Source: Candidatus Thorarchaeota archaeon
Lineage (GTDB): Archaea; Asgardarchaeota; Thorarchaeia; Thorarchaeales; Thorarchaeaceae
Assembly (NCBI GenBank): GCA_003345555.1
Contig: PRDJ01000024.1
Coordinates: 1 to 28,563, forward strand
Reading direction: 5' to 3'
Length of the DNA: 28,563 nucleotides
This document shows, one piece after another, positions 313-24,099 of the stretch; the first letter of the stretch is position 1, and each line of letters starts with the position of its first letter. A model generated the notes under the pieces. It worked only from the letters and a program-made list of their open reading frames with translations. It was not told where the DNA came from and did not search any database. The position numbers were made by a program, and so were the translations under genes.

Positions 313-1710
313 TTAGCCAACGGGCCATTTTGTCTCTATTCTCACACCTGCTCGAGACAGCAGTTCAGTTTGCCGCTCATTAGCCTCATCCATGATTTCG
401 GCTTCGTTCAATGTCAAGAGATGCTTTCTCTTCATTAGAAGACTGCCGTTGACCACAACGGTATCCACGCACTTGCCGCTGGCCGCATACACGAGATTGG
501 AGACGGGATTGCATGCGGGTGTCAAGCCGATGTCTCTCATGTCAACGAGGATTAGGTCAGCAAGCTTGCCCGATTCCAGTGACCCTATTTTGGTCTCGAG
601 GCCAAGGGCTACTGCTCCTCCAATTGTCGCCATTTCTAGGACCTCCTCTGCGCTGACAACAGTTGGATTATTCTGAACGGATTTGTGCATCAGGGCGGCC
701 AAGCGCATCTCTCTTATCATGTCGTAGGTGTTGTTGCTTGGTCCTCCATCGCAACCAAGTGAAACCGGGACACCAAGTCTCAGCATCTCGGGTATTCTAG
801 CAAAGCCTGACGCCAGCTTCATGTTGCTAGCTGGACAATGAGACACATTGGACTTGGTCTCGGCTAGGTTCTTCAAGTCTGCATCATCTAAGTGCACACC
901 ATGTGCAAACACGATGCTTGGCCCCAAGAGACCCATGTCCTTCGCGAAGCTAGTCAGGTTGGGGTAGTTCTTCTGCTTAGCATATCGGACATCATCTAAG
1001 ACCTCGCCCAGATGCATTGTCATTCTCATTCCGTGAGCCTTTGACCTCTGAACAACCTCCTTGAAGAGGTCTGTGCTCACCGCCCCCAAAGAGCGAAGCC
1101 CGTACCAGATCTGAATTCGGCCATCCGATTTGCCGCGCCACTTCGCAAACATTGAGTCTGCTTCCTTCAGTGACGCCTCCTTCTCCTCGACCATACCCGG
1201 ATACATGATATCGGGGTTGTCGGCATAACCCGTAGAGTCCATGACGATCTTTGATAGCGCAGCCCGCATGCCTGCCTCCTCTACGGCTTTCGCGATTCCA
1301 TCAAACCCATATCGGGTGTGAATCATGCATTCAACAAAGGAAGTTGTGCCGGTCCTGATCATCTCAGCCATACATAGCTTAGCGGAGGCCCTACCATCCT
1401 CCAGAGTGAAGTTACCCTGCAGCACCCATACACGATTCTTCAGCCAGTCTACGAGCGCCACGTCGTCAGCGCAACCCCTCAGTAGGGCTTGAGCAAGGTG
1501 GACGTGGGTATCTATCAGCCCTGGCATGACTAGCATGTTCTTTGCGTTTATTACTGTCTCTGCATGATGCCCTCGAATCCTGTCAGTCTTATCCACATTG
1601 ATAATCTTGTTGTCCTCTACCAGTACTGCACCATCGCGAATAATCCGTCTCTCTGGATTCATTGTGACAACATAACCATTCTTGATGAGAAGCGACGCTT
1701 GAGTCGGCAA
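313..1710 (-). CDS. Metal-dependent amidohydrolase/deaminase (MtaD/SsnA/guanine-deaminase-like); substrate uncertain
   Basis: Amidohydrolase motifs PGLIDTHVHL (HxH), HLGE, AHGVH, HCPASNMKL and LGCDG are present. The likely start is TTG at 1710 (MPTQASLLIKNG); the frame is open to 1734. Confidence 0.85.
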   Translation of the reverse strand: MPTQASLLIKNGYVVTMNPERRIIRDGAVLVEDNKIINVDKTDRIRGHHAETVINAKNMLVMPGLIDTHVHLAQALLRGCADDVALVDWLKNRVWVLQGNFTLEDGRASAKLCMAEMIRTGTTSFVECMIHTRYGFDGIAKAVEEAGMRAALSKIVMDSTGYADNPDIMYPGMVEEKEASLKEADSMFAKWRGKSDGRIQIWYGLRSLGAVSTDLFKEVVQRSKAHGMRMTMHLGEVLDDVRYAKQKNYPNLTSFAKDMGLLGPSIVFAHGVHLDDADLKNLAETKSNVSHCPASNMKLASGFARIPEMLRLGVPVSLGCDGGPSNNTYDMIREMRLAALMHKSVQNNPTVVSAEEVLEMATIGGAVALGLETKIGSLESGKLADLILVDMRDIGLTPACNPVSNLVYAASGKCVDTVVVNGSLLMKRKHLLTLNEAEIMDEANERQTELLSRAGVRIETKWPVG

Positions 1711-1779
1711 CTTCCAATCCCAGCTTACCCGCAAATCCGCGCGGGCATGAACATAATGATTGTGGTGAGCCGGGCTTTA

Positions 1780-3747: not shown

Positions 3748-4251
3748 TTGGAGCGTTCTGAAGGCTTGAGCAACATCCTTGTCATCGATTTGGGACTATG
3801 TACCGGGTGCCGGAATTGCGAACTTGCTTGCAGCCAAAAACACACGTCAACCTTCAATCCCCGTAGGTCAAGAATCCAGGTGCTCAAAGACGAATCGAGG
3901 AATGTCATCCTTCCTCTCGTATGCCTGCACTGCGAAGTTCCTCTCTGTGCGGGAGCATGCCCGACCAGTGCCATCATCAAGGATGATGCTGGAACATTGG
4001 TTGTTGATACAAAGAAGTGTGTGGGCTGTTCTGATTGTGTGACTGCGTGCGTCTATGGTGGAGTCGTACTAGATCCTATGACTCAGAGAGCCATAAAATG
4101 CGACCTATGTAGTGGTGACCCAGCGTGTGTAAAGGCATGCCAATACGGGGCAATCACAATGCTGCCCAGAGAATTACGTGGACTTCGAGGAAGGTACGAG
4201 GGGACGAAGAGAGTATTGCAGTCCTATCTCCTCATTGAGGAGGGGACCTGA
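3748..4251 (+). CDS. 4Fe-4S dicluster (DmsB/HycB-like) electron-transfer subunit of AOR-1
   Basis: Cys motifs CTGCRNCELAC, CLHCEVPLCAGACP, CVGCSDCVTAC and CDLCSGDPACVKAC. The gene ends 2 nt before AOR-1. Confidence 0.9.
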   Translation: MERSEGLSNILVIDLGLCTGCRNCELACSQKHTSTFNPRRSRIQVLKDESRNVILPLVCLHCEVPLCAGACPTSAIIKDDAGTLVVDTKKCVGCSDCVTACVYGGVVLDPMTQRAIKCDLCSGDPACVKACQYGAITMLPRELRGLRGRYEGTKRVLQSYLLIEEGT

Positions 4252-4253
4252 GG

Positions 4254-6197
4254 ATGCCGTTCCCGTACAAGGGGTATGCAGGTTACTACCTTGAAGTCGA
4301 CCTGACAAAGGGGAATCTCTACAAGCGAGAAATGGAGAAAGAGTGGGCAAGGCGGTATCTTGGTGGAACTGGTATAGCCGCTCAAATCCTATGGGAGCGG
4401 ACAGGTCCTCAAACCGAACCGCTCTCACCTGAGAATGTCCTTGTCGCAGCAACGGGGCCCCTTACCGGTGTCATGTTCTCGCCCTCAGGCAGGATGATGT
4501 TTGCTTCAAGGGGACCCCTCACGGGCATATGGGCCGAGAGTCATGTGGGCGGGTTCTTTGGTCCCGAAATGAAGTATGCCGGGTTTGATGTTGTCATCAT
4601 ACATGGAAGATCCTCAAAGCCGGTCTACCTTTACTTGTGCGACGGAAAGGCGGAGCTGCGTAATGCATCAGATCTCTGGGGCCGAGAGACAGATACTACA
4701 ATTCAGATGATTCGCGAAGAGCACAAGGATCCCTCGATAGAGACGGCCGTCATAGGACCAGCTGGCGAGAATCAAGTGCTCTTCGGATGCATCAGTGTCG
4801 ATGCGCACCGCTCTGCGGGCCGAACTGGACTTGGAGCAGTAATGGGTTTCAAGAATCTCAAAGGAATTGTTGCGAGCGGCTCATTTGGCCTTGAAGCCTA
4901 TAATACGGAGGCCTACCTGAAAGCGAATGAGCAGGAGACGGCAAAGCTCAAGGACCCATTGTGGAAAGAATCCATTGCATCATTGAAGGATTACGGCACC
5001 ACCGGTCTCGTCACCATGATCAACGAAATCGGCAGGCTTCCCACCAAGAATCACTGGACAGGTTTCTATGAAGAAGCAGAGCAAATCGGCCCTGAAGCAA
5101 TCTCGCGCGGGTATAGGATTGCGGAGGAAGCATGCTACGGGTGTTCGATAGGGTGCAAGTATGTCTATAGAATCAAGGAGGGAAGATTCGCAATCGGACC
5201 TGTCGGGGGTCCAGAGTATGAGACCATCATGGCCTTCGGCTCCAACTGTCTCAATAGCAACCTCCAATCCATACTGTATCTGGGAACGAGATGCGATCGC
5301 CTTGGCATGGACACAATATCATGTGGAAAGACTATTGGTTTCGCCATGGAGTTGTGGGAGAAGGGAATACTCACATCCAAGGACACCGGAGGGCTCGACC
5401 TCACGTGGGGAAACGTGGACTCGATGGTCAAGCTTGTAGAAATGATTTCGAAGAAGGAAGGGATTGGGGCTATCCTGAGCCAGGGAACAAGACTGGCCGC
5501 AGAAAAGATTGGAGGTGATGCGGCAACCTATGCTATCCATTCAAAGGGCTTGGAGGCTTCAGGACAGGATCCGCGGGCGCACCAATCGGTTGGACTCACA
5601 TATGCCACCAACGTCAGAGGAGCAGATCATCTCAGGAGTCTCTCAAGCTTGGAGGAACTCGGCTATCCTGATGTTATCATCAAGAGATTCGGAAAGGACA
5701 AGTTTAAGGAGATAATGAAGATTACATCACCAATTCACAAGGGTGAGGTGATCAAGGACATAGAGGACCTGTATGCCCTCGTCGACTCAGCAGTAATATG
5801 CAAGTACGGAACAATGTGGCCCCCGGTTTATTACTTTGACACTTTTGTGAATGTCATCCCGCCTCTCACAGGCATGGCAGAGTGGGGCGACCCAAGAATC
5901 GTTCGTGAAGCTGCAGAGAGGATCTGTCATCTTAGGAGAGCATACAATCACCGACTTGGTATAACAAGGAAACAAGAAACGCTGCCAAAGAGGCTTCTTT
6001 CAGACCCCATGCCCACAGGACCAGCAAAGGGCGGATTTCCGCAACTGGATTACATGCTTGATGAATACTATAAGTTCCGAGGCTGTGACACTAAGACGGG
6101 TCTCCCCAAGAAGGAGACTCTGATTCGATTAGACATGGGTCCGGTCGCCAAGGAACTTGAGGCTAGGAAAATGCTTGCACCCGCACAATCCGCCTAG
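4254..6197 (+). CDS. aor: Tungsten aldehyde:ferredoxin oxidoreductase family protein (AOR-1)
   Basis: Family motifs YAGYYLEVDL, GPAGEN, GRTGLGAVMGxKNLK, ACYGCSIGC, GPEYET, GMDTIS, RGADH and DSAVIC. Confidence 0.92.
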   Translation: MPFPYKGYAGYYLEVDLTKGNLYKREMEKEWARRYLGGTGIAAQILWERTGPQTEPLSPENVLVAATGPLTGVMFSPSGRMMFASRGPLTGIWAESHVGGFFGPEMKYAGFDVVIIHGRSSKPVYLYLCDGKAELRNASDLWGRETDTTIQMIREEHKDPSIETAVIGPAGENQVLFGCISVDAHRSAGRTGLGAVMGFKNLKGIVASGSFGLEAYNTEAYLKANEQETAKLKDPLWKESIASLKDYGTTGLVTMINEIGRLPTKNHWTGFYEEAEQIGPEAISRGYRIAEEACYGCSIGCKYVYRIKEGRFAIGPVGGPEYETIMAFGSNCLNSNLQSILYLGTRCDRLGMDTISCGKTIGFAMELWEKGILTSKDTGGLDLTWGNVDSMVKLVEMISKKEGIGAILSQGTRLAAEKIGGDAATYAIHSKGLEASGQDPRAHQSVGLTYATNVRGADHLRSLSSLEELGYPDVIIKRFGKDKFKEIMKITSPIHKGEVIKDIEDLYALVDSAVICKYGTMWPPVYYFDTFVNVIPPLTGMAEWGDPRIVREAAERICHLRRAYNHRLGITRKQETLPKRLLSDPMPTGPAKGGFPQLDYMLDEYYKFRGCDTKTGLPKKETLIRLDMGPVAKELEARKMLAPAQSA

Positions 6198-6240: not shown

Positions 6241-7341
6241 TTGACCATGGCAGACCTCGCCGTAACAATAGCCGGGATTCAGTTCAAGAATCCGGTCCTG
6301 ACAGCAGCTGGCCCCACAACACGTGATGGAGAATCTCTCTTGAAGGCCGCTTCAGGAGGAGCGGGCGGTCTCGTAACCAAGACTGTAAGCGTCAAACCTG
6401 CGGCCGTGGCTAAACCGAACATGGCAGTCTTGCAGCCCGGCAAAGTTGGATCCAGGCGTGGAATGTTGAACGCTGAACTGTGGAGCGAACTCCCGCTTGA
6501 TAGGTGGATTAAGTATGAATACCCATTGGCACTTGGTTCGGGTTTGCCTGTGATAGCAAGCATTGGATACACACCTCAGGAAGTCTCGCAGATTGGGCCC
6601 ATGGTCGAGGAGGCGGGGGTCAGTGCCATTGAATTCAGCACTCACTATGTCGGGGGCCACAAGGAGATTGCCAAGACTCTGAGAGACTGTGTCTCAATCC
6701 CCATATTCGCTAAGCTTAGTCCACAGGTCGATGTGGCAAAGGTCGCCAAAGAACTCGAGCAAAGTGTCGACGGAATCGTAGCGATTAACACGCTGGGGCC
6801 TTGTCTACATATCGACATTGAGACAGGTAGACCTGTGCTTGGGGGCGAGAAGGGCTATGGTTGGCTGAGCGGGGCCGCAATCAAGCCTCTTGCGCTCAGA
6901 TGCGTTGCAGACATTGCACAGACTGTCAAGATACCAGTCATTGCAGTTGGCGGAGTGATGAGCGGCGAGGACGCAGTGGAGTTCTTTATGGCTGGCGCCT
7001 CGGCGGTCCAAGTCTGCACGGCAGCAATACTTGACGGACCGAGCGTATATGGGAAGATATCAACGGAGATTGGCGATTGGCTAGACAAGCACGGTCACAA
7101 GTCTATCGAGTCAATTCGTGGTCTTGCACTCAGCAGTATTGGCAAGACGACTGCGTTCACCTACCCGCCCACAGTAGATACTGCAAGATGTAATTTCTGT
7201 GGCCTATGCTCTAAGTCGTGTGTCTACTCTGCCATATCCGTAAACAAAGAAAAGGAATTCTTTCAGATTGACCGGAAGAAATGTGCTGCATGTGGACTGT
7301 GTGTAGCGATTTGTCCTCAGTCTGCTCTCAGCGCTAGCTAA
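6241..7341 (+). CDS. PreA-like protein (dihydropyrimidine dehydrogenase subunit / dihydroorotate dehydrogenase class 1 FMN barrel plus C-terminal 2x[4Fe-4S] domain) with a non-canonical active site
   Basis: Motifs KNPVLTAAGP, VTKT, GMLNAELWSE, AINTL, GWLSGAAIKP and VGGV...AVQVCTA. C-terminal CNFCGLCSKSC and CAACGLCVAICP. EFSTHY replaces the ELNxSCP motif. An alternative ATG start lies at 6247. Confidence 0.8.
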   Translation: MTMADLAVTIAGIQFKNPVLTAAGPTTRDGESLLKAASGGAGGLVTKTVSVKPAAVAKPNMAVLQPGKVGSRRGMLNAELWSELPLDRWIKYEYPLALGSGLPVIASIGYTPQEVSQIGPMVEEAGVSAIEFSTHYVGGHKEIAKTLRDCVSIPIFAKLSPQVDVAKVAKELEQSVDGIVAINTLGPCLHIDIETGRPVLGGEKGYGWLSGAAIKPLALRCVADIAQTVKIPVIAVGGVMSGEDAVEFFMAGASAVQVCTAAILDGPSVYGKISTEIGDWLDKHGHKSIESIRGLALSSIGKTTAFTYPPTVDTARCNFCGLCSKSCVYSAISVNKEKEFFQIDRKKCAACGLCVAICPQSALSAS

Positions 7342-7357
7342 CAGAAGCTGTTGGGCC

Positions 7358-8542
7358 TCACAGTGATATCACGTCATCCAACCCTAGCGTTAGGCGTTTG
7401 GCCTTTCCTTTCGTTACGGCATAGTCATTCTCAACACGAATTCCGCCTACCGCCTTGAGATAGACGCCCGGTTCGATGGCCATGACGTGTCCTTCAGAAA
7501 ACCTGTTGGCATATCGGTACATGCTGGGGTTCTCATGAACCTCAAGGCCAATACCGTGACCCAAGCCGTGCATCATACCTTCAGTCGCGGAGGGGTTGAG
7601 ACGTCTTGAGTCGAAACCGCGATTCTTCAAAACGTGGAAACACGCCATGTTGACATCATCAATTACAGCTCCGTCTCTTAGAGCATCGATAGCTGCATCA
7701 CCGGCCTCCATTACTGACTCGTACATCACTCGAACCTTGTCGCTGAGAGAGCCCTTGACAACTGTGCGGGTGACATCAGCCACGTAGCGGTCAAGCTTGA
7801 GCCTAGGGTAAACGTCTATGATTACAGGTTCACCTGCTTTGAGCAGATCTTTTGGAGCACCCAAGTAATGCCAGTCGAAGGCCTTTCGTCCCACAGCAAC
7901 AATCGTGTCTTCGGCCGACTCGGCACTTCTCTCGAGCTGGGCACGTTCAAGAGCCAATTTGATGTCGTTCACAGTGAGAGGCACTCCACGATGGAGCAGT
8001 GTCTTGTTCGGACCGACCTTTGATTCCTTTATCATTTGAATGGCCTGCGACACACTCTCGATTGTGGCATCTCCTGCCCTCTTGATTGCCTTAATCTCCG
8101 TACTCGACTTGGTAGCACGAGCATCCTTGAGCAAATTGGGAACAACCTTGACTGCATACCCCAGCTGCTGAATTGCCACAAGTACCCTTGCAGGGATGTG
8201 GTCCGGCACACCCACGACCTTGCCAGTGAACATCTTTCTCATGATGTCTCCGTACACCACATCGGGGCAGTCTTCTGCTCTCTTGTTCTGCCTCATGAGT
8301 TGAGTGAGTAGGTCCGTGAGATCGTATGTGCGTGTGACGAAGCTCTCTTTGTGAATGCGATCCAGTGTATTGAATCCTGCAGCTACCAAGCCGTTGTCGC
8401 CTCGGGCCTTGAAGTAAGTAATCTGGTCAGGAGACCGAAAGCCAGTCAACCAGTATATGTCCGGAGTCGTGAATGCATTACCCTCGACAACGATAGCATC
8501 GATACCTGCGGCTTCCATCAGTGGGTCTAGGTCTTCAAGCAT
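7358..8542 (-). CDS. M24 family Xaa-Pro peptidase
   Basis: The metal-ligand motifs IIDV...ADVTRT, HGLGHGIGLEVHE, IEPGVY and GIRVEND are all intact. Confidence 0.88.
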   Translation of the reverse strand: MLEDLDPLMEAAGIDAIVVEGNAFTTPDIYWLTGFRSPDQITYFKARGDNGLVAAGFNTLDRIHKESFVTRTYDLTDLLTQLMRQNKRAEDCPDVVYGDIMRKMFTGKVVGVPDHIPARVLVAIQQLGYAVKVVPNLLKDARATKSSTEIKAIKRAGDATIESVSQAIQMIKESKVGPNKTLLHRGVPLTVNDIKLALERAQLERSAESAEDTIVAVGRKAFDWHYLGAPKDLLKAGEPVIIDVYPRLKLDRYVADVTRTVVKGSLSDKVRVMYESVMEAGDAAIDALRDGAVIDDVNMACFHVLKNRGFDSRRLNPSATEGMMHGLGHGIGLEVHENPSMYRYANRFSEGHVMAIEPGVYLKAVGGIRVENDYAVTKGKAKRLTLGLDDVISL

Positions 8543-8730
8543 TGGATGTCCTCAGAAAGAGACCTCAGACAGGAGCGAATGAAAAAGCCTTCCATTGATG
8601 AGTACGTGTAGAAGGAACCCCGATTCTGATTCTCCTCTTCTTGAGTGAAACTCACCGGGACAACGTCGAAGGGGGAAGTTGTTATATCAGGCTTCCGGGG
8701 GAGGTGAGAACAACTAACGGTGATCCAAGC

Positions 8731-10155
8731 TTGAGGATACTGTTTGTAGAGCCGCCCAAAGTCTTCTGGTTCGTGATGGGTGAGTACCTTCCCCCTCCGC
8801 TAGGGATTCTGAACCTCGCAGCGTATTTGCGGCGTCATGATTCCAATCTCGACATAGAGGTTCTTGATTGTCAGGCAGAGGGAATTGACTGGAGAGCCTT
8901 AGAGGGACGGATTGAGGCCTTTGGACCAGACGTGGTAGCACCTAGCTCCCTTACTACATGTAACGCATACAGGGGACTCAGAATCGCTGAACTCGCAAAG
9001 AAGATCAATCCCGACACAACTACGATTGTAGGGGGACAGCACTATACTGCCTTGGCCGAAGAAACACTTGAAATCTATCCAGAGATTGACGTGGTCGTAA
9101 GAGGAGAGGGGGAGCAAACCTTGGCAGAAGTGATAGACGCTCTGAAAGGAAACCACAATCTATCGCAGGTCAAAGGAATCTCTTTCAGGAAGAACAGGAC
9201 AATCACGACGACACCGGATCGTCCGCTCATTGAGAACTTGGATGACCTGCCTCTTCCGGGATACGATTTTGTTGAGAAGCAAATGAAGAAGTACCATTTC
9301 TCATTGATGGCAGGCGCAAATACCCCCTACGCGCTCATTGAGGCCTCGAGGGGCTGCCCTCATGATTGCTCTTTCTGCTCGCAATGCGCGTTTTGGCAAT
9401 GGCAATGGAGGCTCAAGTCTCCCAAACGGATTGCTGATGAGTTCGAGTACTGCTATACCAAGTTTGGCACACGGTTCTTTTGGTTGACCGACGATAACTT
9501 CGGCCTTGGCCCAAGAACGCGAGAACTATGTGGCGAGATTCAGAAGAGAGGAATTGCGGATGATATCATGTGGTTCATGCAGGCACGATGTGATGATATT
9601 GTCAATCAGCAGGACACTCTGCCATTACTGCGGAAGTCCGGATTGATGTGGATATTGGCAGGCGTCGAGAGTCATAGCCCGGAGATACTGAAGTCATTCA
9701 ACAAAGGAATCGAGCCCTCCATGTCAAAGGAGGCATTTCGTCTCCTGAAACTCAGCGACATCTTCGCGCAAGCCACACTAATCATAGGGTCACGCAGCGA
9801 TTCTCACGAAACAATTCGAGGACTTCGAGCCTATGTCAATGATCTTGACCCTGATCTCGCAATATTCATGGCTCTTACGCCATTTCCAGGAACTGCATTC
9901 TACGATGAAGCCAAGAGGAATGGCTGGATAGAAGATACGAACTGGGCGCACTACGACATGGCACATGCAATCATGCCAACTGAACATCTTACGCGTGCGG
10001 AAGTACAAGAGGAGCTCTATCACTGTTTCCGTGGTTTCTATGGGTCATGGAACAGAAGAATGACCGGACTGTTTTCACGTAACAAACTCAAGAGGAGAAC
10101 ATACAGATACATGGCACGGCAAGGAGTCCTCCAGGCATTACGAGGTATGTTCTAG
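8731..10155 (+). CDS. Cobalamin-binding (class B, BchE-like) radical SAM protein
   Basis: N-terminal B12-binding domain (PPLGILNLAAYL, IVGGQH, VVRGEGE) and CxxxCxxC motif (GCPHDCSFC). The likely start is TTG at 8731, after GGTGA at 8719-8723; the ORF track start at 8641 is probably too long. Confidence 0.88.
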   Translation: MRILFVEPPKVFWFVMGEYLPPPLGILNLAAYLRRHDSNLDIEVLDCQAEGIDWRALEGRIEAFGPDVVAPSSLTTCNAYRGLRIAELAKKINPDTTTIVGGQHYTALAEETLEIYPEIDVVVRGEGEQTLAEVIDALKGNHNLSQVKGISFRKNRTITTTPDRPLIENLDDLPLPGYDFVEKQMKKYHFSLMAGANTPYALIEASRGCPHDCSFCSQCAFWQWQWRLKSPKRIADEFEYCYTKFGTRFFWLTDDNFGLGPRTRELCGEIQKRGIADDIMWFMQARCDDIVNQQDTLPLLRKSGLMWILAGVESHSPEILKSFNKGIEPSMSKEAFRLLKLSDIFAQATLIIGSRSDSHETIRGLRAYVNDLDPDLAIFMALTPFPGTAFYDEAKRNGWIEDTNWAHYDMAHAIMPTEHLTRAEVQEELYHCFRGFYGSWNRRMTGLFSRNKLKRRTYRYMARQGVLQALRGMF

Positions 10156-10895
10156 TGGCGCGCAAGCGTGAACCCGGCGGAATGCATGCATATTGGTACT
10201 TGGCAGTGTCTTTGTCGAGCCTCGGTATCATTCCGCTCATAACATTCTCAGGCAATGCAAGTCAGGCCATGTCCATTGAGCAATCGCGACTAGTCTGGTC
10301 TGTATTCACACTGATTTGTGTGGCTGGCACGATTGCAGGCGTAAGACCTTCGAGTTGTTCCAGAAGCTCGGAGACCGCTCAGACCCATGATGGGGCAGAA
10401 CGACCGGGTTTGACAAGTGATGGGATTAGAGTAGTACGCAGAAAAGGGCATCACTACTCATGCGACCGTTACTCAGGACACGTCATCTCCGCCCGTGATA
10501 GAGTCTTTTGTGCGGGATGCACGGGACTTGCCATAGGGGGGACAATCGCTGCATCTGGGAGCCTGCTGCACATGACCGCAGGCCTCTCATTGGGATCAGG
10601 CATGTTGCTGTTCTGGCTCGGCTTCACAGGCGTAGCAGTCGGACTACTCCAGCATCCACTCTACAGGGTCCTCGGCGTACAGAACGGGTTCGTCCGCGTT
10701 GGTGTCAACGTGCTATTCGTTAACGGAGCGTTCCTTCTTCTTACGGGCGCTGATCAACTGGTCCAGAGTCTCTCCCTTGACACCTACATTCTCATCGTTA
10801 TTCTCTTTTGGATTTCAACCAGAGTCGTAATGTCAAGAAGGGAGCATCTCAGAATCTGTGCGGAATGCCCTGAGTTGTCTTGCACTGGACGGTAG
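10155..10895 (+). CDS. Multi-pass membrane protein with a His/Cys cluster (distantly DUF2085-like)
   Basis: Several hydrophobic helices plus GHHYSC...GH...FCAGCTG and a C-terminal CAEC. The GTG start overlaps the radical SAM gene's TAG by 1 nt. Confidence 0.65.
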   Translation: MARKREPGGMHAYWYLAVSLSSLGIIPLITFSGNASQAMSIEQSRLVWSVFTLICVAGTIAGVRPSSCSRSSETAQTHDGAERPGLTSDGIRVVRRKGHHYSCDRYSGHVISARDRVFCAGCTGLAIGGTIAASGSLLHMTAGLSLGSGMLLFWLGFTGVAVGLLQHPLYRVLGVQNGFVRVGVNVLFVNGAFLLLTGADQLVQSLSLDTYILIVILFWISTRVVMSRREHLRICAECPELSCTGR

Positions 10896-12647: not shown

Positions 12648-12929
12648 TTGGCAACAGTGACTGTGAAGTTCTTTGCGACTGTGCGCGAAATCACAGGCAC
12701 AAAGAGCGTCGAGATTGATGCACACAATGTTGAACAGCTGCTACAGGAACTGATTCGTACGTTTGGAAAGCGGTTCTCGGACGCAGTCATGGACCCTAAG
12801 TCCGGAGGGCTCAAACGATTCTATTCATGCATGGTGAATGGCAAGCGAATCGAGCTCCTCAATGGCTACCAGACAGCGCTAAATCAAGGTGATACTGTGG
12901 CACTGTTCCCACCCGTTGGAGGAGGATAG
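12648..12929 (+). CDS. MoaD/ThiS family ubiquitin-like sulfur carrier (SAMP-like)
   Basis: VKFFATVREITG...MVNG...GDTVALFPPVGGG, ending in a C-terminal diglycine. TTG start. Confidence 0.92.
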   Translation: MATVTVKFFATVREITGTKSVEIDAHNVEQLLQELIRTFGKRFSDAVMDPKSGGLKRFYSCMVNGKRIELLNGYQTALNQGDTVALFPPVGGG

Positions 12930-12931
12930 AC

Positions 12932-14341
12932 TTGGCTCGCTCCGGCTCCACAAAAAGCGCAAGCATAGGCAAGACCGGGTCGGTCCAGCTTGTGATAAAG
13001 AATGCCAAGATGCTGATGGAGTCCGGCATCCTCAGAGGAGGAGTCGCCGTGTCCAATGGACGTATTTGTTGTGTGGCCACAGACGAACATCTGCCGCCTG
13101 CTGAGACAGTGGTCGATGCTCGTGGACAAATCCTTATGCCAGGACTCATTGATGGTCACGCCCACATTCATGATCCGGCCAAGGCGGACCACGAGGATTT
13201 CACAACAGGTTCACGTGCAGCTGCGGCTGGAGGGGTGACCACGGTCATAGATATGCCTTTGACAAGTTCGGTGGTCACGCAGAAACAGATTGAGGAAAAG
13301 GCCAGTCAAGGTGCGGCGATGTCCATCGTTGACTTCTCGATGTACGCGGGCATGATGAAGTCAGACAATGTCGCCGCGATACCGCTCTTGATTGAGAACG
13401 GCGTCGCTGCTTTCAAGGCCTTCACCTGCGAACCATACTATGCGAACGACGGGGTCTTAACGCGATTACTAAGCGAGGTTTCAGAGCACGGCGGCCACCT
13501 TACCGTTCACTGTGAGAATCAGGGTGTGCTCGACGAGTTCAAGAATGATATGGAGGGAGAATGGGATGCTCCCATCAGTCATTCGCTGGCCCGACCCAAT
13601 CTAGCAGAGCAAATCGCCGTGCGGCAGACCATTGGCATAGCCCAACAGACAGGGGGGCATCTTCACATAGCTCACGTCTCAACGCGTGAGGCGATTCATG
13701 AAGTTGATTATGGAAAGCGCGCGGGGATTTTACTCACTTCGGAGGTGTGTCCACATCATTTAGTCTTCAACAGAGACGACATGAACAGGCTCGGGCCAAA
13801 GAGCAAGATGAACCCACCCTTGCGATCCAAGGAGGACAGGGCTGCTCTATGGTCAGCCCTCCTCATGGGGACCATTGACATTGTTGTGAGTGACCATGCC
13901 CCTTGCCCGATCGAAGAAAAGAACAGAGGAGCAAACGACATCAGAGACGCATGGGCAGGAGTAGACGGTATCCAGATGATACTCAGGGTTCTCCTCTCAG
14001 AAGGAGTCAACAAGGGGAGACTGTCTTTTGGACGCCTCGTTGAAGTTGCATGTAGAAACCCCGCAAGAATCTTCGGACTCTATCCCAAGAAAGGGGTACT
14101 GCAGGTTGGCTCGGACGCGGACATGGTGATATTGGACCCCACGCGAGAGGAAACGATTAAGTCGGATATGATGTTCTCGAAGTGTGGTTGGACCTTATAC
14201 GAAGGAATGAAGATGAAGGGAGCCCCTATTGCGACATTCGTCAGGGGAGCTCAGGTCTTCAATGAGGACAGAACCACTATGAAACCTGGTCATGGCACGT
14301 TTCTTAGGATGGGTGAAGGCAGTGCGCCATTTGAGGAATAG
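12932..14341 (+). CDS. Cyclic amidohydrolase (allantoinase / dihydropyrimidinase / dihydroorotase superfamily)
   Basis: Motifs PGLIDGHAH, AAAAGGVTTVIDMP, AFKAF (carbamylated Lys), VHCEN, HIAHVS, KMNPPLR and SDHAP. The moaD Gly codons GGAGGAGGA also serve as the SD sequence for its TTG start. Confidence 0.88.
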   Translation: MARSGSTKSASIGKTGSVQLVIKNAKMLMESGILRGGVAVSNGRICCVATDEHLPPAETVVDARGQILMPGLIDGHAHIHDPAKADHEDFTTGSRAAAAGGVTTVIDMPLTSSVVTQKQIEEKASQGAAMSIVDFSMYAGMMKSDNVAAIPLLIENGVAAFKAFTCEPYYANDGVLTRLLSEVSEHGGHLTVHCENQGVLDEFKNDMEGEWDAPISHSLARPNLAEQIAVRQTIGIAQQTGGHLHIAHVSTREAIHEVDYGKRAGILLTSEVCPHHLVFNRDDMNRLGPKSKMNPPLRSKEDRAALWSALLMGTIDIVVSDHAPCPIEEKNRGANDIRDAWAGVDGIQMILRVLLSEGVNKGRLSFGRLVEVACRNPARIFGLYPKKGVLQVGSDADMVILDPTREETIKSDMMFSKCGWTLYEGMKMKGAPIATFVRGAQVFNEDRTTMKPGHGTFLRMGEGSAPFEE

Positions 14342-14344
14342 GAC

Positions 14345-14836
14345 ATGCCGGATCTCAAGTTTGCCTTTGGCGACCCAATGGTATGCACCGGTTGTATGAT
14401 TTGCGCCAACGTGTGCAGCATGTTCTACTTCAAAGTGCTAGGTCCGACTAGGTCGAGAGTCAGGGTCTTGCGTTTCGAAGATGGGCTGGATTTTCCCCTA
14501 TTCTGTCGCAACTGTAAGGATGCTCCCTGTAAGGATGCTTGTCCGGAAGATGCAATCATGCGCACCTCTAAGGGAATCGTGACTGTAAACAACTCAAAGT
14601 GCACTGGCTGTGGAGCGTGCGTCAAGGCTTGTCCATATGATGCTATCTTCATCAACCCCGACTCGAACAAGGCCATCAAGTGTATTGCATGTGGCGAATG
14701 CGTGAAGCGGTGCCCGGTTGGAGCCATAACGATAACGACAGAAAATGATCTCAAGGAGAGAGACAAGGTAGGTAAAATCTCCGGGTTCTACGAGAAACAC
14801 AAGAGAGATCTGTACTCTAAGGGGGAGTTCCTCTGA
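14345..14836 (+). CDS. 4Fe-4S dicluster electron-transfer subunit of AOR-2
   Basis: Cys motifs CTGCMICANVC, CRNCKDAPCKDACP, CTGCGACVKACP and CIACGECVKRCP. Confidence 0.9.
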   Translation: MPDLKFAFGDPMVCTGCMICANVCSMFYFKVLGPTRSRVRVLRFEDGLDFPLFCRNCKDAPCKDACPEDAIMRTSKGIVTVNNSKCTGCGACVKACPYDAIFINPDSNKAIKCIACGECVKRCPVGAITITTENDLKERDKVGKISGFYEKHKRDLYSKGEFL

Positions 14837-16719
14837 TCAAGGGCGTGGGTGGCCGCTTTCTCCGGGTCGACCTGATGAGTGGGAGAATCGAAAAGAAGCC
14901 CCTGGACGAACAGCTCGTTCACAAGTATCTGCTCGGGGCCGGATTTCTCTCGAAGATGCTTTTCGACATGATTCCGGACAATACCGATCCATTTTCACCC
15001 GCGAATGTTCTCGGTTTCGCCACGGGATTGCTCACAGGTTCCATGTTTCCTCAATCCTCAAGGCACGTTATAGCTGCTCTGTCTCCCTTGACAGGAATAT
15101 GGGGTGAGAGTCACGCCGCAGGCTTCTGGGGTGCTGAACTGAAGTTTGCTGGCTATGACGCCATAATCTTCACGGGTGCATCTGAGAGACCCGTATACCT
15201 CCTTGTTGAAGACTCAAACGTGCAGTTGCTTGAGGCGTCTAGTATATGGGGCAAGGATGTCTTCGAGACCGATGGTGCACTGAGAGCCAAACATGGAAGG
15301 CAATCCAGAGTTCTCTCCATTGGCCAAGCAGGCGAGAACTTGGTCCGCTTTGCGGCCATAATGAACGACAGGGACAGGGCATCTGCACGTTCGGGTCTTG
15401 GTGCAGTTATGGGATCGAAGAAGCTGAAGGCCATTTGCGTACGTGGTGGCGGCAAGCTGGAGGTTGCGGACCCAGCCAACTACCTTAGAACAATGGATGA
15501 GCTATACAAGAGAATGCTTGCCAATCCCTTCACGAGGGGGCGGGCGGAGTTCGGCACGACAAGTCTAATCGAACTGATGCAGCATATCGGTCGTCTGCCG
15601 ACTTACAACATGCGGCAAGGCGTATTCGATGGATACGAGAAGATTGGCGGTCACGCTATCAACCGAGGATATCTCATTAAACCTAGAGCAGATTGGAGTT
15701 GCCTTCAGAGATGTGGTCGTTTCACATCAGTACCAGATGGTCCGTATGCGTACACAGGTGGTTCACCCGAGTTTGAGAGTCAGGCGGCCTTGGGATCGCG
15801 ATGTGGCAACGACAACATAGAATCAGTTCTCTATAGCCATCATCTGGCAAACAAGTATGGGATGGATACTATATCGCTCGGAGGCACCATAGCGTGGGCG
15901 ATGGAGGCTTGGGAAAAGGGAATCCTCACAGCCAAAGATACTGGAGGAATAGACCTCAGCTGGGGGAATCATGAGTCGATCGTTAAACTGACCGAGATGA
16001 TTGCTTTCAGGAAAGGATTCGGGGACCTGCTTGCCGAGGGAAGCTTCAGGGCTGCCAAGACGATTGGGCGTGGGAGTGAGAAGTTTGTCATGGCCGTGAA
16101 GAAGCAGGAAATTGCGGGGCAGGAACCCAGAGCCCAAAAATCAATGGGGCTTGCTGCCGTTACAGCCGCAAGGGGAGCCGATCATCTCTATGGATTCCCA
16201 GTGCTCGATGAAGTCGGCTTCGACGATGAGATAAAGAAGCGCTTCGGCTCCAAGTACCTGCCACAGATGGCGGACAGACTGAATCCGACTTACAAGGGCA
16301 TAATGGTTAAGGAATGCGAGGATTACATGGTTGTCGTGGAGAGTGTGGGCCTCTGCAAGTACGGCACACAGATTCCCCCAGAGTTCTACTACGAGGACGT
16401 CGCCTTGGGTCTGAAGATCCACAACGGACTTGATTTCACAGTCGAGGAACTGAAGAGAATCGGGGAACGAATTGTCAATCTGAATCGCTTGTTCAATGCC
16501 AGGTTCGGAATCACAAGAGATGATGATGCTCTTCCTGAGAGGCTAGTGGAAGAGGAAGCACCGGTTGGCCCTTCGAAAGGGCAGGTCGTTGAACTGGAAT
16601 CGATGCTCAGTGAGTACTACTCCCACAGGGGATGGGACTCGAAGAGTGGCCTACCGACAAGAACCACCTTGAGGAAACTCTCCCTTGAACAGGAAGGGCA
16701 GAGTCTCACGCGGCACTAG
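14833..16719 (+). CDS. aor: Tungsten aldehyde:ferredoxin oxidoreductase family protein (AOR-2)
   Basis: Motifs GQAGEN, ARSGLGAVMGSKKLKA, SPEFES, GMDTIS, RGADH and ESVGLC. The start is either GTG at 14845 or, more likely, CTG at 14833 overlapping the upstream TGA. Confidence 0.9.
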   Translation: MIKGVGGRFLRVDLMSGRIEKKPLDEQLVHKYLLGAGFLSKMLFDMIPDNTDPFSPANVLGFATGLLTGSMFPQSSRHVIAALSPLTGIWGESHAAGFWGAELKFAGYDAIIFTGASERPVYLLVEDSNVQLLEASSIWGKDVFETDGALRAKHGRQSRVLSIGQAGENLVRFAAIMNDRDRASARSGLGAVMGSKKLKAICVRGGGKLEVADPANYLRTMDELYKRMLANPFTRGRAEFGTTSLIELMQHIGRLPTYNMRQGVFDGYEKIGGHAINRGYLIKPRADWSCLQRCGRFTSVPDGPYAYTGGSPEFESQAALGSRCGNDNIESVLYSHHLANKYGMDTISLGGTIAWAMEAWEKGILTAKDTGGIDLSWGNHESIVKLTEMIAFRKGFGDLLAEGSFRAAKTIGRGSEKFVMAVKKQEIAGQEPRAQKSMGLAAVTAARGADHLYGFPVLDEVGFDDEIKKRFGSKYLPQMADRLNPTYKGIMVKECEDYMVVVESVGLCKYGTQIPPEFYYEDVALGLKIHNGLDFTVEELKRIGERIVNLNRLFNARFGITRDDDALPERLVEEEAPVGPSKGQVVELESMLSEYYSHRGWDSKSGLPTRTTLRKLSLEQEGQSLTRH

Positions 16720-16749
16720 AAGTAGCTACAATCTGACCCACTGTGGCGT

Positions 16750-16995
16750 CTAGTCGCAAGTAGCACACACATTCGTGACAGTATCGCGAATTCCGTCGAT
16801 TTTCCTCAGAGTGTCGACAACAAATGAGCTCAGAGCCTCGGGCGTCTTGAATGATGCTTTCAGAAGTAGGTCGTATGCACCATAGATGATGTACGCCTCC
16901 TGAACTCCATCAATCTTCTTTACGCGATTCAGGACTTCGCGTGATTTGGAGGATTCAACCTTCGCCATGATGAATGCTAGCACCACCACTATCAC
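16750..16995 (-). CDS. Stand-alone Lrp/AsnC ligand-binding (RAM) domain protein
   Basis: VLAFIMAKVE...V.EAYIIYGAYDLLLK...VVDTLRKIDGIRDTVT is a typical RAM domain; no HTH is present. Confidence 0.82.
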   Translation of the reverse strand: MIVVVLAFIMAKVESSKSREVLNRVKKIDGVQEAYIIYGAYDLLLKASFKTPEALSSFVVDTLRKIDGIRDTVTNVCATCD

Positions 16996-17186
16996 ACACC
17001 GAGATTATCACAATGCCTAAAGTGCAAGCTCCACTCCGATAATAAAAGCAGCTGTCTTCAAGACTCTGGTCAGACTGGCTCACGACGAGACAGACAACAC
17101 TCTTGACACATGATGTCCTCAAATCAGGAATGTTAATTAGATTACGACGAATCCGGGCTTTGATGCCCACGGGGGTCACAAACAGT

Positions 17187-17654
17187 TTGACGGCAGCCGG
17201 TCATAAGGCGACCAGCAGTCAGAGGCAGAAAGCTAGGGGAGAGAAGGACTTCGAGCCACGGATTCTGGCTTTCTGCTGCAACTGGTGTTCCTACGCAGGG
17301 GCAGATCTGGCAGGGACAAGTAGAAGGCAAATGCCTCCGAATGTCAGGATTATCAGGGTGAATTGCACGGGACGAGTGGACCCATCGTTCATCTTGGATG
17401 CACTGAACCAAGGTGCGGACGGTGTATTGATTTCTGGCTGTCACCCAGGGGACTGCCACTACACAAGTGGCAATCTAAAGATGAAGTCACGTTTTGCCCT
17501 GCTTCAGAAGGTGTTGGAGGAAGCGGGCTTCGAGCCCGAGAGAATCCATCTGCAATGGGCGAGTGCCGCGGAAGGCGATGTATTCACTGAAGGCATTACA
17601 TCAATGGTCGAGCGTATCAAGGCATTAGGACCGAATCCCGCAAGGAAGGACTAA
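17187..17654 (+). CDS. mvhD: F420-non-reducing hydrogenase iron-sulfur subunit D (all-Cys form)
   Basis: Motifs FEPRILAFCCNWCSYAGADLAG, RIIRVNCTGRVDP and GCHPGDCHY. The start is uncertain: TTG at 17187 after GGGGTC is likely, ATG at 17163 is possible, and the frame is open from 17103. Confidence 0.92.
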   Translation: MTAAGHKATSSQRQKARGEKDFEPRILAFCCNWCSYAGADLAGTSRRQMPPNVRIIRVNCTGRVDPSFILDALNQGADGVLISGCHPGDCHYTSGNLKMKSRFALLQKVLEEAGFEPERIHLQWASAAEGDVFTEGITSMVERIKALGPNPARKD

Positions 17655-17660
17655 CAACAC

Positions 17661-18572
17661 ATGACTAAGCGTATTGCCATGGCCCAGCTGACCTCTTGTT
17701 GGGGATGCGATCAATCTCTCTTAGACTTACATCTGGGCCTTCTCGAAGTCCTGCCTGAGCTGGAAATAGTATTCTGGCCGGCGGTCGTTGACTTCAAAAT
17801 CAAGGATCTCGAATCAATGCCGGATGAGTCGATTCACATCGGTCTTGTCGAGGGCAGTTGCAGGACAGAAGATGACGTGCGCTTGCTCAATCTGATGAGA
17901 GCTAAGAGCAAGATTCTGGTTGCATGGGGTGTTTGTTCCTGTTATGGGGGCATACAAGGCCTGGCCAACCAATGGGAACTTGATGAGCTGGTTGACAGGA
18001 AGTTCATGAAAGCAGACACGGTGACTGACCCAAGGATACCTTCGGAGAATGTTCCTGCATTTGTGCCACAAGTGCGGCCGAACGTAGACGTGGTTAAGTT
18101 CAACATCTTGCTGCCAGGCTGCCCGCCGACAAGCAAGAACATTGTCGAGGCACTAGCTGCTATTCTCACAGGGAAGCCTTTCGACCTTCCCGAAAAGAGC
18201 GTATGCGACCAGTGTCCGAAGGTGAAACAAGACAAGCACATCACGAAGTTCCACAGGAGCCATGAGGGCAGAATAGACCCCAGCAAGTGCCTCTTGGACC
18301 AGGGATACCTCTGTCTGGGATTTGCCACCATCGGGTTCTGCGGAGCAATCTGCCCGACAGTCAATTCACCATGCAAAGGCTGCTTCGGTCCAGTGCTCAG
18401 AGTCAAGGACCATGGTGCCAAGATTGTTTCAGCTCTTGGTGCAATTGCCGAAATGGAACCCGAGCAGCTCAAGGATTCATTTCCGGATCCCATCGGTTCC
18501 TTCTACTTCACGGACTACGCAGCGTCTTATCTGTCGAGAATGCGCGACAAGGCGAGGAGCAAGAAGAAGTGA
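17661..18572 (+). CDS. mvhG: F420-non-reducing [NiFe] hydrogenase small subunit G
   Basis: Motifs SCWGCD, VEGSCR, WGVCSCYGG, LPGCPP, VCDQCP and CLGFATIGFCGAICPTVNSPCKGCFGP. Confidence 0.92.
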   Translation: MTKRIAMAQLTSCWGCDQSLLDLHLGLLEVLPELEIVFWPAVVDFKIKDLESMPDESIHIGLVEGSCRTEDDVRLLNLMRAKSKILVAWGVCSCYGGIQGLANQWELDELVDRKFMKADTVTDPRIPSENVPAFVPQVRPNVDVVKFNILLPGCPPTSKNIVEALAAILTGKPFDLPEKSVCDQCPKVKQDKHITKFHRSHEGRIDPSKCLLDQGYLCLGFATIGFCGAICPTVNSPCKGCFGPVLRVKDHGAKIVSALGAIAEMEPEQLKDSFPDPIGSFYFTDYAASYLSRMRDKARSKKK

Positions 18573-23978: not shown

Positions 23979-24099
23979 CCGGACTCACGACCTTGTGATA
24001 GATGACTGACTCCCCAGCCGTGTAATGAAGCCCGTGTCATACACTCCTTCATATTGAATGCGACAGAGAAGACCGCAGCAGTCCGAAGAAGGCCGACGC

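What the first reader, a model, noticed from the sequence alone, without database searches (positions are those of the whole stretch)
6241..7341. PreA/DHOD-like flavoprotein lacking the catalytic Asn-x-Ser-Cys loop
Class 1 dihydroorotate dehydrogenases and dihydropyrimidine dehydrogenases use E-x-N-x-S-C-P, where Cys is the catalytic acid/base. Here the equivalent segment is EFSTHY (6631-6648), while the FMN-binding motifs and two ferredoxin Cys motifs are intact. No PreT or PyrK partner is adjacent; the gene instead follows an AOR. Inference: a ferredoxin-linked reductase with a different substrate and His/Tyr catalysis, as in old-yellow-enzyme-like chemistry.
Basis: partly seen in the sequence, partly recalled or inferred. 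Interest (0 to 1): 0.6.

Follow-up and report, generated by a model that had tools for sequence, protein, structure and literature searches.

The report
Cysteine-less DPD-like reductase beside tungsten AOR
This Asgard-archaeal gene encodes an FMN and iron-sulfur enzyme related to dihydroorotate and dihydropyrimidine dehydrogenases that has lost their catalytic cysteine loop, and its relatives' gene neighbours point to ring reduction in anaerobic purine-type nucleobase breakdown, here apparently wired to a tungsten aldehyde oxidoreductase.

Summary
ORF 6241-7341 (real start ATG 6247) is a DHO_dh FMN barrel fused to two complete [4Fe-4S] motifs. It reads EFSTHY at 6631-6648, where PyrD and PreA have E-x-N-x-S-C-P. 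Profile alignment shows the 12-residue Cys loop is deleted. The genome has an ordinary PyrD-PyrK pair on another contig.

E-x-S-T-H-Y defines a large clade found in Asgard, Hadarchaeota, Undinarchaeales, Korarchaeota, Bathyarchaeota, Acidobacteriota and Sporomusaceae. Outside Asgard, Korarchaeota and Bathyarchaeota, its immediate upstream partner is an SsnA/deaminase-type amidohydrolase (33 of 52 loci). A hydantoinase-type amidohydrolase and a xanthine-dehydrogenase-family enzyme are often nearby. That is the gene position of YgfK/UacX in the reductive uric-acid pathway published in 2025. The clade profile matches the E. coli YgfK FMN domain better than a canonical PreA profile does (93% against 47%).

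In Asgard and close relatives, a polyferredoxin plus tungsten AOR replaces the xanthine dehydrogenase (43 of 43 loci against 0 of 43).

My best reading is a low-potential, ferredoxin-type reductase that dearomatises an oxopurine-like heterocycle. His/Tyr catalysis remains untested. I class it as a new variant of a known kind, of moderate to high interest.

The parts
6247..7341 (+). Gene for the Cys-loop-less DHOD/PreA-like flavoprotein (364 aa from ATG 6247; the mechanical ORF starts at TTG 6241)
   Evidence: AF2 model has pLDDT 80.8 and its best Foldseek hits are the pig DPD FMN and Fe-S domains
6631..6648 (+). E131-F-S-T-H-Y136 signature replacing E-x-N-x-S-C; the following 12-residue catalytic loop is absent
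7174..7329 (+). C-terminal 2x[4Fe-4S] ferredoxin domain (residues 312-363; CxxCxxCxxxC twice)
3748..4251 (+). Polyferredoxin with four clusters, AorA/WorS-like; first gene of the presumed operon
   Evidence: best PDB hits 8c0z_C and 9mqx_E
4254..6197 (+). Tungsten-type aldehyde:ferredoxin oxidoreductase AOR1; keeps the EYE motif, the catalytic His and the cluster Cys residues of P. furiosus AOR
   Evidence: upstream of the flavoprotein gene in 43/43 related loci
313..1734 (-). Deaminase-type amidohydrolase (TRZ/ATZ-DadD-SsnA group); its orthologue lies directly upstream of the flavoprotein gene in other lineages (L128, L131, L134)
7358..8542 (-). M24 (prolidase/creatinase-fold) hydrolase, convergent with the flavoprotein gene; conserved in Thor and Loki loci
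12648..12929 (+). MoaD/ThiS-like small protein ending in GGG
   Evidence: sequence only; not checked against any family library
12932..14341 (+). Cyclic amidohydrolase (allantoinase / dihydropyrimidinase / dihydroorotase type)
   Evidence: TIGR03178 scores 363 against a cut-off of 358; conserved in 33/43 loci
14345..16719 (+). Second polyferredoxin (14345-14836) and AOR2 (14845-16719)

Best explanation
The protein is an FMN plus 2x[4Fe-4S] reductase of the DPD/PreA fold. It reduces (dearomatises) a C=C bond of an oxopurine-like N-heterocycle and is the functional counterpart of YgfK/UacX in the reductive uric-acid (2,8-dioxopurine) pathway. Low-potential electrons enter through the two C-terminal clusters. 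In this archaeon they most likely come from the polyferredoxin and tungsten AOR encoded directly upstream, by aldehyde oxidation or from the neighbouring Mvh hydrogenase. FMN then delivers a hydride to the substrate. The proton normally supplied by the loop Cys would come from the clade-specific S133/H135/Y136 residues at the end of strand beta-4. The unstable reduced ring is pulled forward by hydrolytic opening, done by the deaminase/SsnA-type and hydantoinase-type amidohydrolases of the same cluster. Shown here: the domain and cofactor motifs, loss of the Cys loop, clade-wide conservation of the new motif, the gene neighbourhoods, and the closer profile match to YgfK. Inferred: the substrate class, the electron donor and the proton donor.
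For: Fold and cofactor motifs are established. The Cys loop is deleted and E-x-S-T-H-Y is invariant. Two of the three pyrimidine-binding Asn residues and the following Thr are retained (N77, N183, T184), and new invariant aromatic residues appear (W81, Y110, Y136, W208). The clade has bacterial members 52% identical to this protein (Terracidiphilus, Sporomusaceae). In locus L153 the orthologue sits between a true SsnA (643 bits against a cut-off of 444) and a D-hydantoinase (622 bits), with a selenium-dependent xanthine dehydrogenase (1350 bits) and a nucleobase permease nearby. In L131 a Thor-type deaminase, the orthologue and an XDH large subunit are adjacent. In L102 an SsnA-like gene and the orthologue lie next to an SsnA-PreA-PreT set. 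An SsnA/deaminase-type amidohydrolase is the co-directional upstream gene in 33 of 52 metagenome loci. The papers report that YgfK needs SsnA coupling and that C. difficile replaces YgfK with UacX, a PF01180 FMN protein without a FAD domain (PMC12507026; bioRxiv 10.1101/2025.04.24.650524). The clade profile aligns to E. coli YgfK residues 43-390 at 93% probability over 241 columns, covering YgfK's FNTEWS and LSTMH segments. A canonical PreA profile reaches 47% over 136 columns. A polyferredoxin and an AOR lie within 8 kb in 43 of 43 Asgard/TACK loci, and an XDH in none. AOR and XDH never occur together. The genome has no XDH-family gene.
Against: There are no biochemical data for any member of the clade, and the paper I read reports no UacX activity result. 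I could not fetch the C. difficile UacX sequence, so whether UacX carries this motif is unknown. L102 shows that canonical Cys-containing PreA proteins also sit next to SsnA. In this window the linked amidohydrolase scores best as a DadD-type deaminase (411 bits) rather than SsnA (230 bits). It lies 4.5 kb away on the other strand. No YgeX orthologue was found in the genome. The L153 permease scores as a uracil permease, and the cyclic amidohydrolases also match dihydropyrimidinase, so a pyrimidine substrate is not excluded. The hhalign match to YgfK is significant but modest (E = 2.7e-7).
Confidence: 0.55

Rival explanations
1. It is the third subunit of the AOR-polyferredoxin complex, an archaeal analogue of the FAD subunit AorC. 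Its FMN would pass electrons from aldehyde oxidation to NAD(P)+ or to some non-heterocyclic acceptor, with no role in nucleobase chemistry.
For: It is encoded directly after AorA-like and AorB-like genes, with a 49-nt gap, in every Asgard/TACK locus. AOR1 and pFd1 are closest to AorB/AorA and WorL/WorS. Multi-subunit WORs with a flavin exit module are known (PMC12318220).
Against: The same clade occurs without any AOR in 29 of 32 metagenome loci, next to SsnA-type amidohydrolases and XDH. It has no Rossmann or NAD(P) domain. Its invariant pocket residues (N77, N183, T184, H135, Y136) look like substrate-binding residues, not a bare relay.
Confidence: 0.13
2. It is a ferredoxin-dependent dihydropyrimidine dehydrogenase acting on uracil or thymine (PydAc-like) that uses a proton donor other than Cys.
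For: N77, N183 and T184 correspond to DPD residues N609, N736 and T737 (from memory of the DPD structures, placed by the alignments). The nearby cyclic amidohydrolase matches dihydropyrimidinase models. The L153 permease scores as a uracil permease.
Against: The third Asn is replaced and the whole mobile loop is gone. L102 carries a canonical PreA-PreT beside the Cys-less paralogue, which implies separate functions. The association is with SsnA and selenium-XDH, which are markers of the purine pathway. The profile is closer to YgfK than a PreA profile is.
Confidence: 0.15
3. It is a reductase for another N-heterocycle handled by a hydroxylase, reductase and amidohydrolase sequence (nicotinate-, pterin- or hydantoin-type). 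The ring-opened product would be an aldehyde that the adjacent AOR oxidises.
For: Amidohydrolases of this group also act on pterins and triazines (the family names). AOR1 keeps all the catalytic residues for aldehyde oxidation, so an aldehyde intermediate is plausible. The nicotinate fermentation scheme yielding 2-formylglutarate is recalled from memory.
Against: No nicotinate- or pterin-specific genes were seen. The bacterial orthologues sit in purine-type clusters.
Confidence: 0.12
4. It is an ordinary dihydroorotate dehydrogenase for pyrimidine synthesis.
For: It gives a PF01180 hit, and source databases label homologues 'dihydroorotate dehydrogenase subfamily 1'.
Against: It has no catalytic Cys or loop. 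It scores 188 bits against a cut-off of 269. A canonical PyrD (AIELNLSCPH) and PyrK are present on contig 18.
Confidence: 0.02

Closest known systems
UacX (C. difficile Q181U4) and YgfK/DOPOR (E. coli b2878), the 2,8-dioxopurine reductases of the reductive uric-acid pathway (PMC12507026; bioRxiv 10.1101/2025.04.24.650524)
   Same: Like UacX, it has the PF01180 FMN domain with Fe-S clusters and no FAD/NAD(P) domain. Its orthologues occupy the same place beside SsnA, a hydantoinase and a selenium/molybdenum XDH. Its profile is related to the YgfK N-terminal domain.
   Different: It is archaeal. Here it is linked to a tungsten AOR and polyferredoxin instead of an XDH. The amidohydrolase partner belongs to a DadD-like subfamily. 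No YgeX was found. The UacX sequence could not be compared. YgfK reads LSTMHGCPP and so may keep a Cys.
PreA / dihydropyrimidine dehydrogenase domains IV-V (pig DPD 1h7w, 7m31; NF006183)
   Same: It is the best structural match (Foldseek probability 1.0). It shares the FMN barrel followed by a 2x[4Fe-4S] domain and the N-x-E-L-x-S-E and N-T motifs.
   Different: It lacks the Cys671 loop (12 residues deleted). One substrate Asn is replaced by Ser. It has no PreT partner. It scores 188 bits against a cut-off of 335.
Class 1B dihydroorotate dehydrogenase PyrD (L. lactis 1ep1)
   Same: It is the best PDB sequence hit (1e-27) and is 33% identical to the genome's own PyrD.
   Different: It has an extra ferredoxin domain, no PyrK partner and no Cys130-type loop.
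AorABC / WorABCSL multi-subunit tungsten aldehyde oxidoreductases (8c0z, 9mqx)
   Same: The upstream genes are AorA/WorS-like and AorB/WorL-like, and a flavoprotein gene follows them.
   Different: The flavoprotein is an FMN TIM barrel with its own clusters. It is neither the FAD/NAD subunit AorC nor a BfuABC module. The paper describes the N and BF types as bacterial only.

Membership tests
Class 1 DHOD (PyrD) | Catalytic Cys in the E-x-N-x-S-C-P-N loop | tested here: not met
   EFSTHY with the loop deleted
Class 1 DHOD (PyrD) | Score above the NCBIfam equivalog cut-off | tested here: not met
   NF005574 scores 187.6 against 269; TIGR01037 scores 181.5 against 270
Class 1 DHOD (PyrD) | PyrK partner, or being the sole DHOD of the genome | tested here: not met
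   A canonical PyrD-PyrK pair lies at G000 contig 18
PreA / DPD | FMN barrel plus a C-terminal 2x[4Fe-4S] domain | tested here: met
PreA / DPD | Catalytic Cys (Cys671 type) on the mobile loop and the three uracil-binding Asn residues | tested here: not met
   The Cys and loop are absent; N77 and N183 are kept; the third Asn is Ser133
PreA / DPD | Adjacent PreT (FAD/NAD, GltD-like) partner and a score above the NF006183 cut-off | tested here: not met
   No such gene lies in the window. The score is 187.9 against 335. A genome-wide PreT search was not done.
UacX/YgfK-type oxopurine reductase | PF01180 FMN domain with Fe-S clusters and without a FAD/NAD(P) domain | tested here: met
   definition taken from PMC12507026
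UacX/YgfK-type oxopurine reductase | Co-localisation with SsnA | tested here: inconclusive
   Met in relatives: 33 of 52 loci have an SsnA/deaminase-type gene immediately upstream, and true SsnA is present in L153 and L102. In this window the amidohydrolase is of a DadD-like subfamily, 4.5 kb away on the other strand.
UacX/YgfK-type oxopurine reductase | Co-localisation with an XDH-family molybdenum or selenium hydroxylase | tested here: not met
   0 of 43 Asgard/TACK loci, and no PF02738 gene in the genome. Met in 9 of 32 loci of more distant clade members.
UacX/YgfK-type oxopurine reductase | Hydantoinase-type cyclic amidohydrolase in the cluster | tested here: met
   12932-14341; 33 of 43 loci
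UacX/YgfK-type oxopurine reductase | Sequence kinship to the characterised enzymes | tested here: inconclusive
   The clade profile against the E. coli YgfK N-terminal domain gives 93% probability, E = 2.7e-7, against 47% for a canonical PreA profile. The C. difficile UacX sequence could not be obtained.
UacX/YgfK-type oxopurine reductase | Reduction of 2,8-dioxopurine | not testable with these tools
   Needs an enzyme assay
AorC-type third subunit of AOR | FAD- and NAD(P)-binding fold | tested here: not met
   Only DHO_dh and Fer4 domains are found
Old yellow enzyme | OYE family fold (PF00724) with a His/Asn pair and a Tyr proton donor | tested here: not met
   PF00724 is not among the ten families listed at E <= 0.001. 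The H135/Y136 geometry could not be tested.

The most novel reading that the evidence does not exclude
Polyferredoxin, tungsten AOR and this flavoprotein form one W/Fe-S/FMN complex. Very low-potential electrons from aldehyde oxidation, or from the adjacent Mvh hydrogenase, would drive the thermodynamically difficult dearomatisation of a purine ring. This would be a tungsten-based archaeal version of the reductive purine pathway, in which AOR-family enzymes stand where selenium/molybdenum xanthine dehydrogenases stand in bacteria. It would be conserved across Asgard, Korarchaeota and Bathyarchaeota.
Probability: 0.3. Interest if true: 0.85.

Novelty: new variant of a known kind. Interest (0 to 1): 0.6.

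Why it matters
Databases label hundreds of these proteins 'dihydroorotate dehydrogenase' or '4Fe-4S binding protein', which is very probably wrong. The E-x-S-T-H-Y clade offers a sequence marker for a Cys-independent branch of the DPD/DHOD superfamily. It also gives a concrete candidate for the ferredoxin-dependent ring-reducing step of anaerobic purine breakdown. In Asgard archaea it ties that step to tungsten AORs, whose many paralogues are highly expressed but have no assigned function. That yields a directly testable route for nucleobase fermentation in the closest prokaryotic relatives of eukaryotes, and a possible new type of multi-subunit tungsten enzyme.

Tried and rejected
I took neighbourhoods from the search for related loci instead.
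- A 15-sequence clade alignment was too diverse for the metagenome scan. A 5-sequence alignment worked.
- C188 as a replacement catalytic Cys is rejected, because it is not conserved across the clade.
- An SsnA-like paralogue on contig 67 has an uninformative neighbourhood.
- E. coli YgeX has no orthologue in the genome, and YgeW finds only generic carbamoyltransferases.
- The bacterial-type promoter and terminator scan said nothing useful for an archaeon.
- Literature searches for AOR with Asgard and DHOD, tungsten with purine, UacX, and Asgard purine degradation found no description of this protein or cluster.
- The AF2 model could not be inspected at coordinate level, so the His/Tyr-to-FMN geometry is untested.
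- The C. difficile UacX and PydAc sequences could not be fetched with the tools available.
- AOR1 as a non-aldehyde enzyme is not supported. It keeps the EYE motif, the catalytic His and the cluster cysteines of P. furiosus AOR.

Full report
**Observation.** The ORF at 6241-7341 on the + strand translates to a 366-residue protein. The database copy and all homologues begin at ATG 6247 with MADL. Pfam finds DHO_dh (PF01180, 3.9e-37) and a C-terminal 4Fe-4S dicluster domain. The bases at 6631-6648 read GAA TTC AGC ACT CAC TAT, which encodes EFSTHY at residues 131-136. The best NCBIfam models, PyrD class 1B and PreA, each score about 188 bits. Their cut-offs are 269 and 335. The closest solved sequences are L. 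lactis DHOD B and pig DPD.

**The Cys loop is gone.**
- BLAST against the genome's own PyrD aligns EFSTHY with ELNLSC without a gap.
- MAFFT and profile-profile alignment place S133 on the substrate Asn and H135 on the Ser. They delete the Cys and the following 11 residues of the mobile loop.
- Either way no Cys is available at the catalytic position.
- Both CxxCxxCxxxC motifs are complete. By alignment to DHOD and DPD, the FMN-contact residues K47, K158, G237-G238 and T260 are conserved.
- The genome holds a normal PyrD (AIELNLSCPH) followed by PyrK on contig 18. This gene is therefore not the biosynthetic enzyme.

**The family.**
- More than 100 clusters at 57-85% identity come from Thor-, Hod-, Loki/Promethearchaeota and related MAGs. 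The window is clearly from a Thorarchaeota-type Asgard archaeon.
- In 24 of these homologues E131, F132, S133, T134, H135 and Y136 are invariant.
- A profile search of 1.8 billion representatives followed by a tree shows that E-x-S-T-H-Y defines one clade of about 35 representatives at 50% identity. The same clade carries N-x-E-L-W-S, N-[ST]-x-G-P and G-W-x-S-G.
- That clade sits inside a larger radiation of short-loop DHO_dh-Fer4 proteins, well apart from the long-loop E-L-N-x-S-C-P-H PreA group.
- Across 15 diverse clade members of 35-50% identity, the invariant residues include K47, N77, E79, W81, S82, Y110, E131, S133, H135, Y136, K158, N183, G186, P187 and W208.
- C188 is invariant among near relatives but variable across the clade, so it is not a relocated catalytic Cys.
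- Members occur in Hadarchaeota and Undinarchaeales. They also occur in bacteria such as Terracidiphilus and Sporomusaceae, at 52% identity to the window protein.

**Structure.** An AF2 model has pLDDT 80.8, with low confidence at residues 54-78 and 189-210. It shows the TIM barrel plus the ferredoxin domain. H135 and Y136 lie just after strand beta-4 (residues 129-133), where the Cys loop begins in DHOD and DPD. Foldseek ranks pig DPD first and class 1 DHODs next.

**Context in Asgard and TACK archaea.**
- Eighty genome loci were fetched.
- In Thor and Loki genomes they show a conserved block:
  - a deaminase-type amidohydrolase (-) and a histidine kinase (-);
  - polyferredoxin, AOR1 and the flavoprotein, with zero to two CLC/CBS genes inserted before the flavoprotein in some Thor genomes;
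  - an M24 hydrolase (-) and a PfkB kinase (-);
  - a MoaD-like gene, a cyclic amidohydrolase, polyferredoxin 2 and AOR2;
  - MvhDGA.
- In Hermod-, Odin-, Baldr-, Kor- and Bathyarchaeota the polyferredoxin-AOR-flavoprotein trio is contiguous. A further polyferredoxin-AOR pair often follows, together with two deaminase paralogues and the cyclic amidohydrolase.
- Of 43 loci with at least 4 kb on both sides, all 43 have an AOR and a polyferredoxin within 8 kb. Thirty-three have the cyclic amidohydrolase, 32 have the deaminase-type amidohydrolase, and none has an XDH.
- AOR1 and its polyferredoxin are closest to AorB/AorA of Aromatoleum and WorL/WorS. AOR1 keeps the EYE motif, the catalytic His and the cluster cysteines.
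- The published survey of this AOR clade lists FAD-type (N), Bfu-type (BF), monomeric and quinone-linked forms, with N and BF in bacteria only. It does not list a DHOD-type partner.

**Context in more distant clade members.**
- Eighty metagenome loci of the ELSTHY type tell a different story.
  - The gene immediately upstream and co-directional is an SsnA/deaminase-type amidohydrolase in 33 of 52 loci.
  - Among 32 loci with at least 4 kb on both sides, 26 have such an amidohydrolase, 14 a cyclic amidohydrolase, 9 an XDH-family enzyme and only 3 an AOR.
  - AOR and XDH never occur together.
- L153 reads: nucleobase permease, SsnA (643 bits against a cut-off of 444), the flavoprotein, two PLP enzymes, D-hydantoinase (622 bits) and selenium-dependent xanthine dehydrogenase (1350 bits).
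- L131 reads: ThrC-like gene, Thor-type deaminase, the flavoprotein, then a divergent XDH large subunit followed by two small ORFs of 156 and 304 aa that I did not annotate.
- L102 has an SsnA-like gene plus the flavoprotein, back to back with true SsnA, true PreA (460 bits) and a PreT-like gene.

**Link to known biochemistry.**
- Two 2025 studies showed that anaerobic bacteria degrade urate by a reductive route. XdhD or DOPDH makes 2,8-dioxopurine. YgfK (DOPOR) dearomatises it, detectably only when coupled to SsnA. HyuA and later enzymes finish the pathway.
- C. difficile lacks YgfK. In its place it has UacX, a PF01180 FMN protein without a FAD domain that is presumed to use ferredoxin. I found no activity result for it in the paper.
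- The clade studied here occupies exactly that genomic position.
- The clade profile aligns to residues 43-390 of E. coli YgfK at 93% probability (E = 2.7e-7, 241 columns). The aligned region includes YgfK's FNTEWS and LSTMH segments. A canonical PreA profile reaches only 47% over 136 columns.
- I could not retrieve the UacX sequence. Whether UacX itself has E-x-S-T-H-Y is open, and L102 shows that Cys-containing PreA proteins can also neighbour SsnA.

**Interpretation.**
- The most economical reading is a low-potential heterocycle reductase, most likely acting on an oxopurine. Its product is trapped by the neighbouring amidohydrolases.
- The short loop and the new aromatic residues (W81, Y110, Y136, W208) fit a larger, flatter substrate than a pyrimidine. 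This is inference.
- In this archaeon the electron source is probably the polyferredoxin-AOR encoded upstream. The acid/aldehyde couple is very low in potential (from general knowledge), which would help an unfavourable dearomatisation.
- The genome has no XDH-family gene but has ten AOR paralogues.
- Weaknesses of this reading:
  - the window's amidohydrolase is DadD-like rather than SsnA-like;
  - no YgeX was found;
  - pyrimidine or other heterocycle substrates remain possible;
  - nothing has been assayed.

**Verdict.** The earlier first-reader note e1-5421780 proposed the same cluster-level idea. I reached the synteny independently before reading that note and tested it further here. I class this as a new variant of a known kind of enzyme and rate its interest at 0.6.

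Noticed in passing
L003:8082-9956; L007:4684-6522 and 6703-8553: In many Thorarchaeota, one or two CLC-type channel/transporter genes with CBS domains are inserted between AOR1 and the flavoprotein gene. They are absent from this window.
   Followed up: partly
window 12648-19882: A second module reads MoaD-like gene, cyclic amidohydrolase, polyferredoxin 2, AOR2 and then MvhD/G/A hydrogenase. It is conserved in order across Thor and Loki loci. The hydrogenase could feed the same polyferredoxin system.
   Followed up: partly
L102:4985-13104: One contig carries two divergent reductase and amidohydrolase sets: SsnA-like plus the Cys-less flavoprotein (ELSTQY), and true SsnA plus canonical PreA plus a PreT-like gene. 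The second set looks like a split form of YgfK.
   Followed up: partly
L131:4975-6252; L153:9123-10382: A threonine-synthase-like PLP enzyme recurs next to clade members (5 of 32 metagenome loci and 3 of 43 genome loci). It might replace YgeX.
   Followed up: no
representatives P0135-P0252: There is a large radiation of other short-loop DHO_dh-Fer4 clades, for example E-V-V-S-Y-D with D-S-x-G-P and N-Y-D-W with N-T-I-G-P-G. They also lack the catalytic Cys, and I know of no assigned function for them.
   Followed up: no
L164:16061-19156 (E. coli ygfK): One of the 2025 preprints calls the YgfK N-terminal domain a domain of unknown function. It aligns over 241 columns with the DHOD-like clade profile, consistent with it being the FMN substrate domain.
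   Followed up: partly
window 8641-10895: A B12-binding radical SAM gene (BchE-like, 269 bits against a cut-off of 481) and a 246-aa ORF with no family hit lie between the M24 and PfkB genes. This occurs only here and in the closest relative L001.
   Followed up: no
window 24058-25041: This ORF has a succinylglutamate desuccinylase/aspartoacylase-type catalytic domain (3.2e-13). It was not examined further.
   Followed up: no
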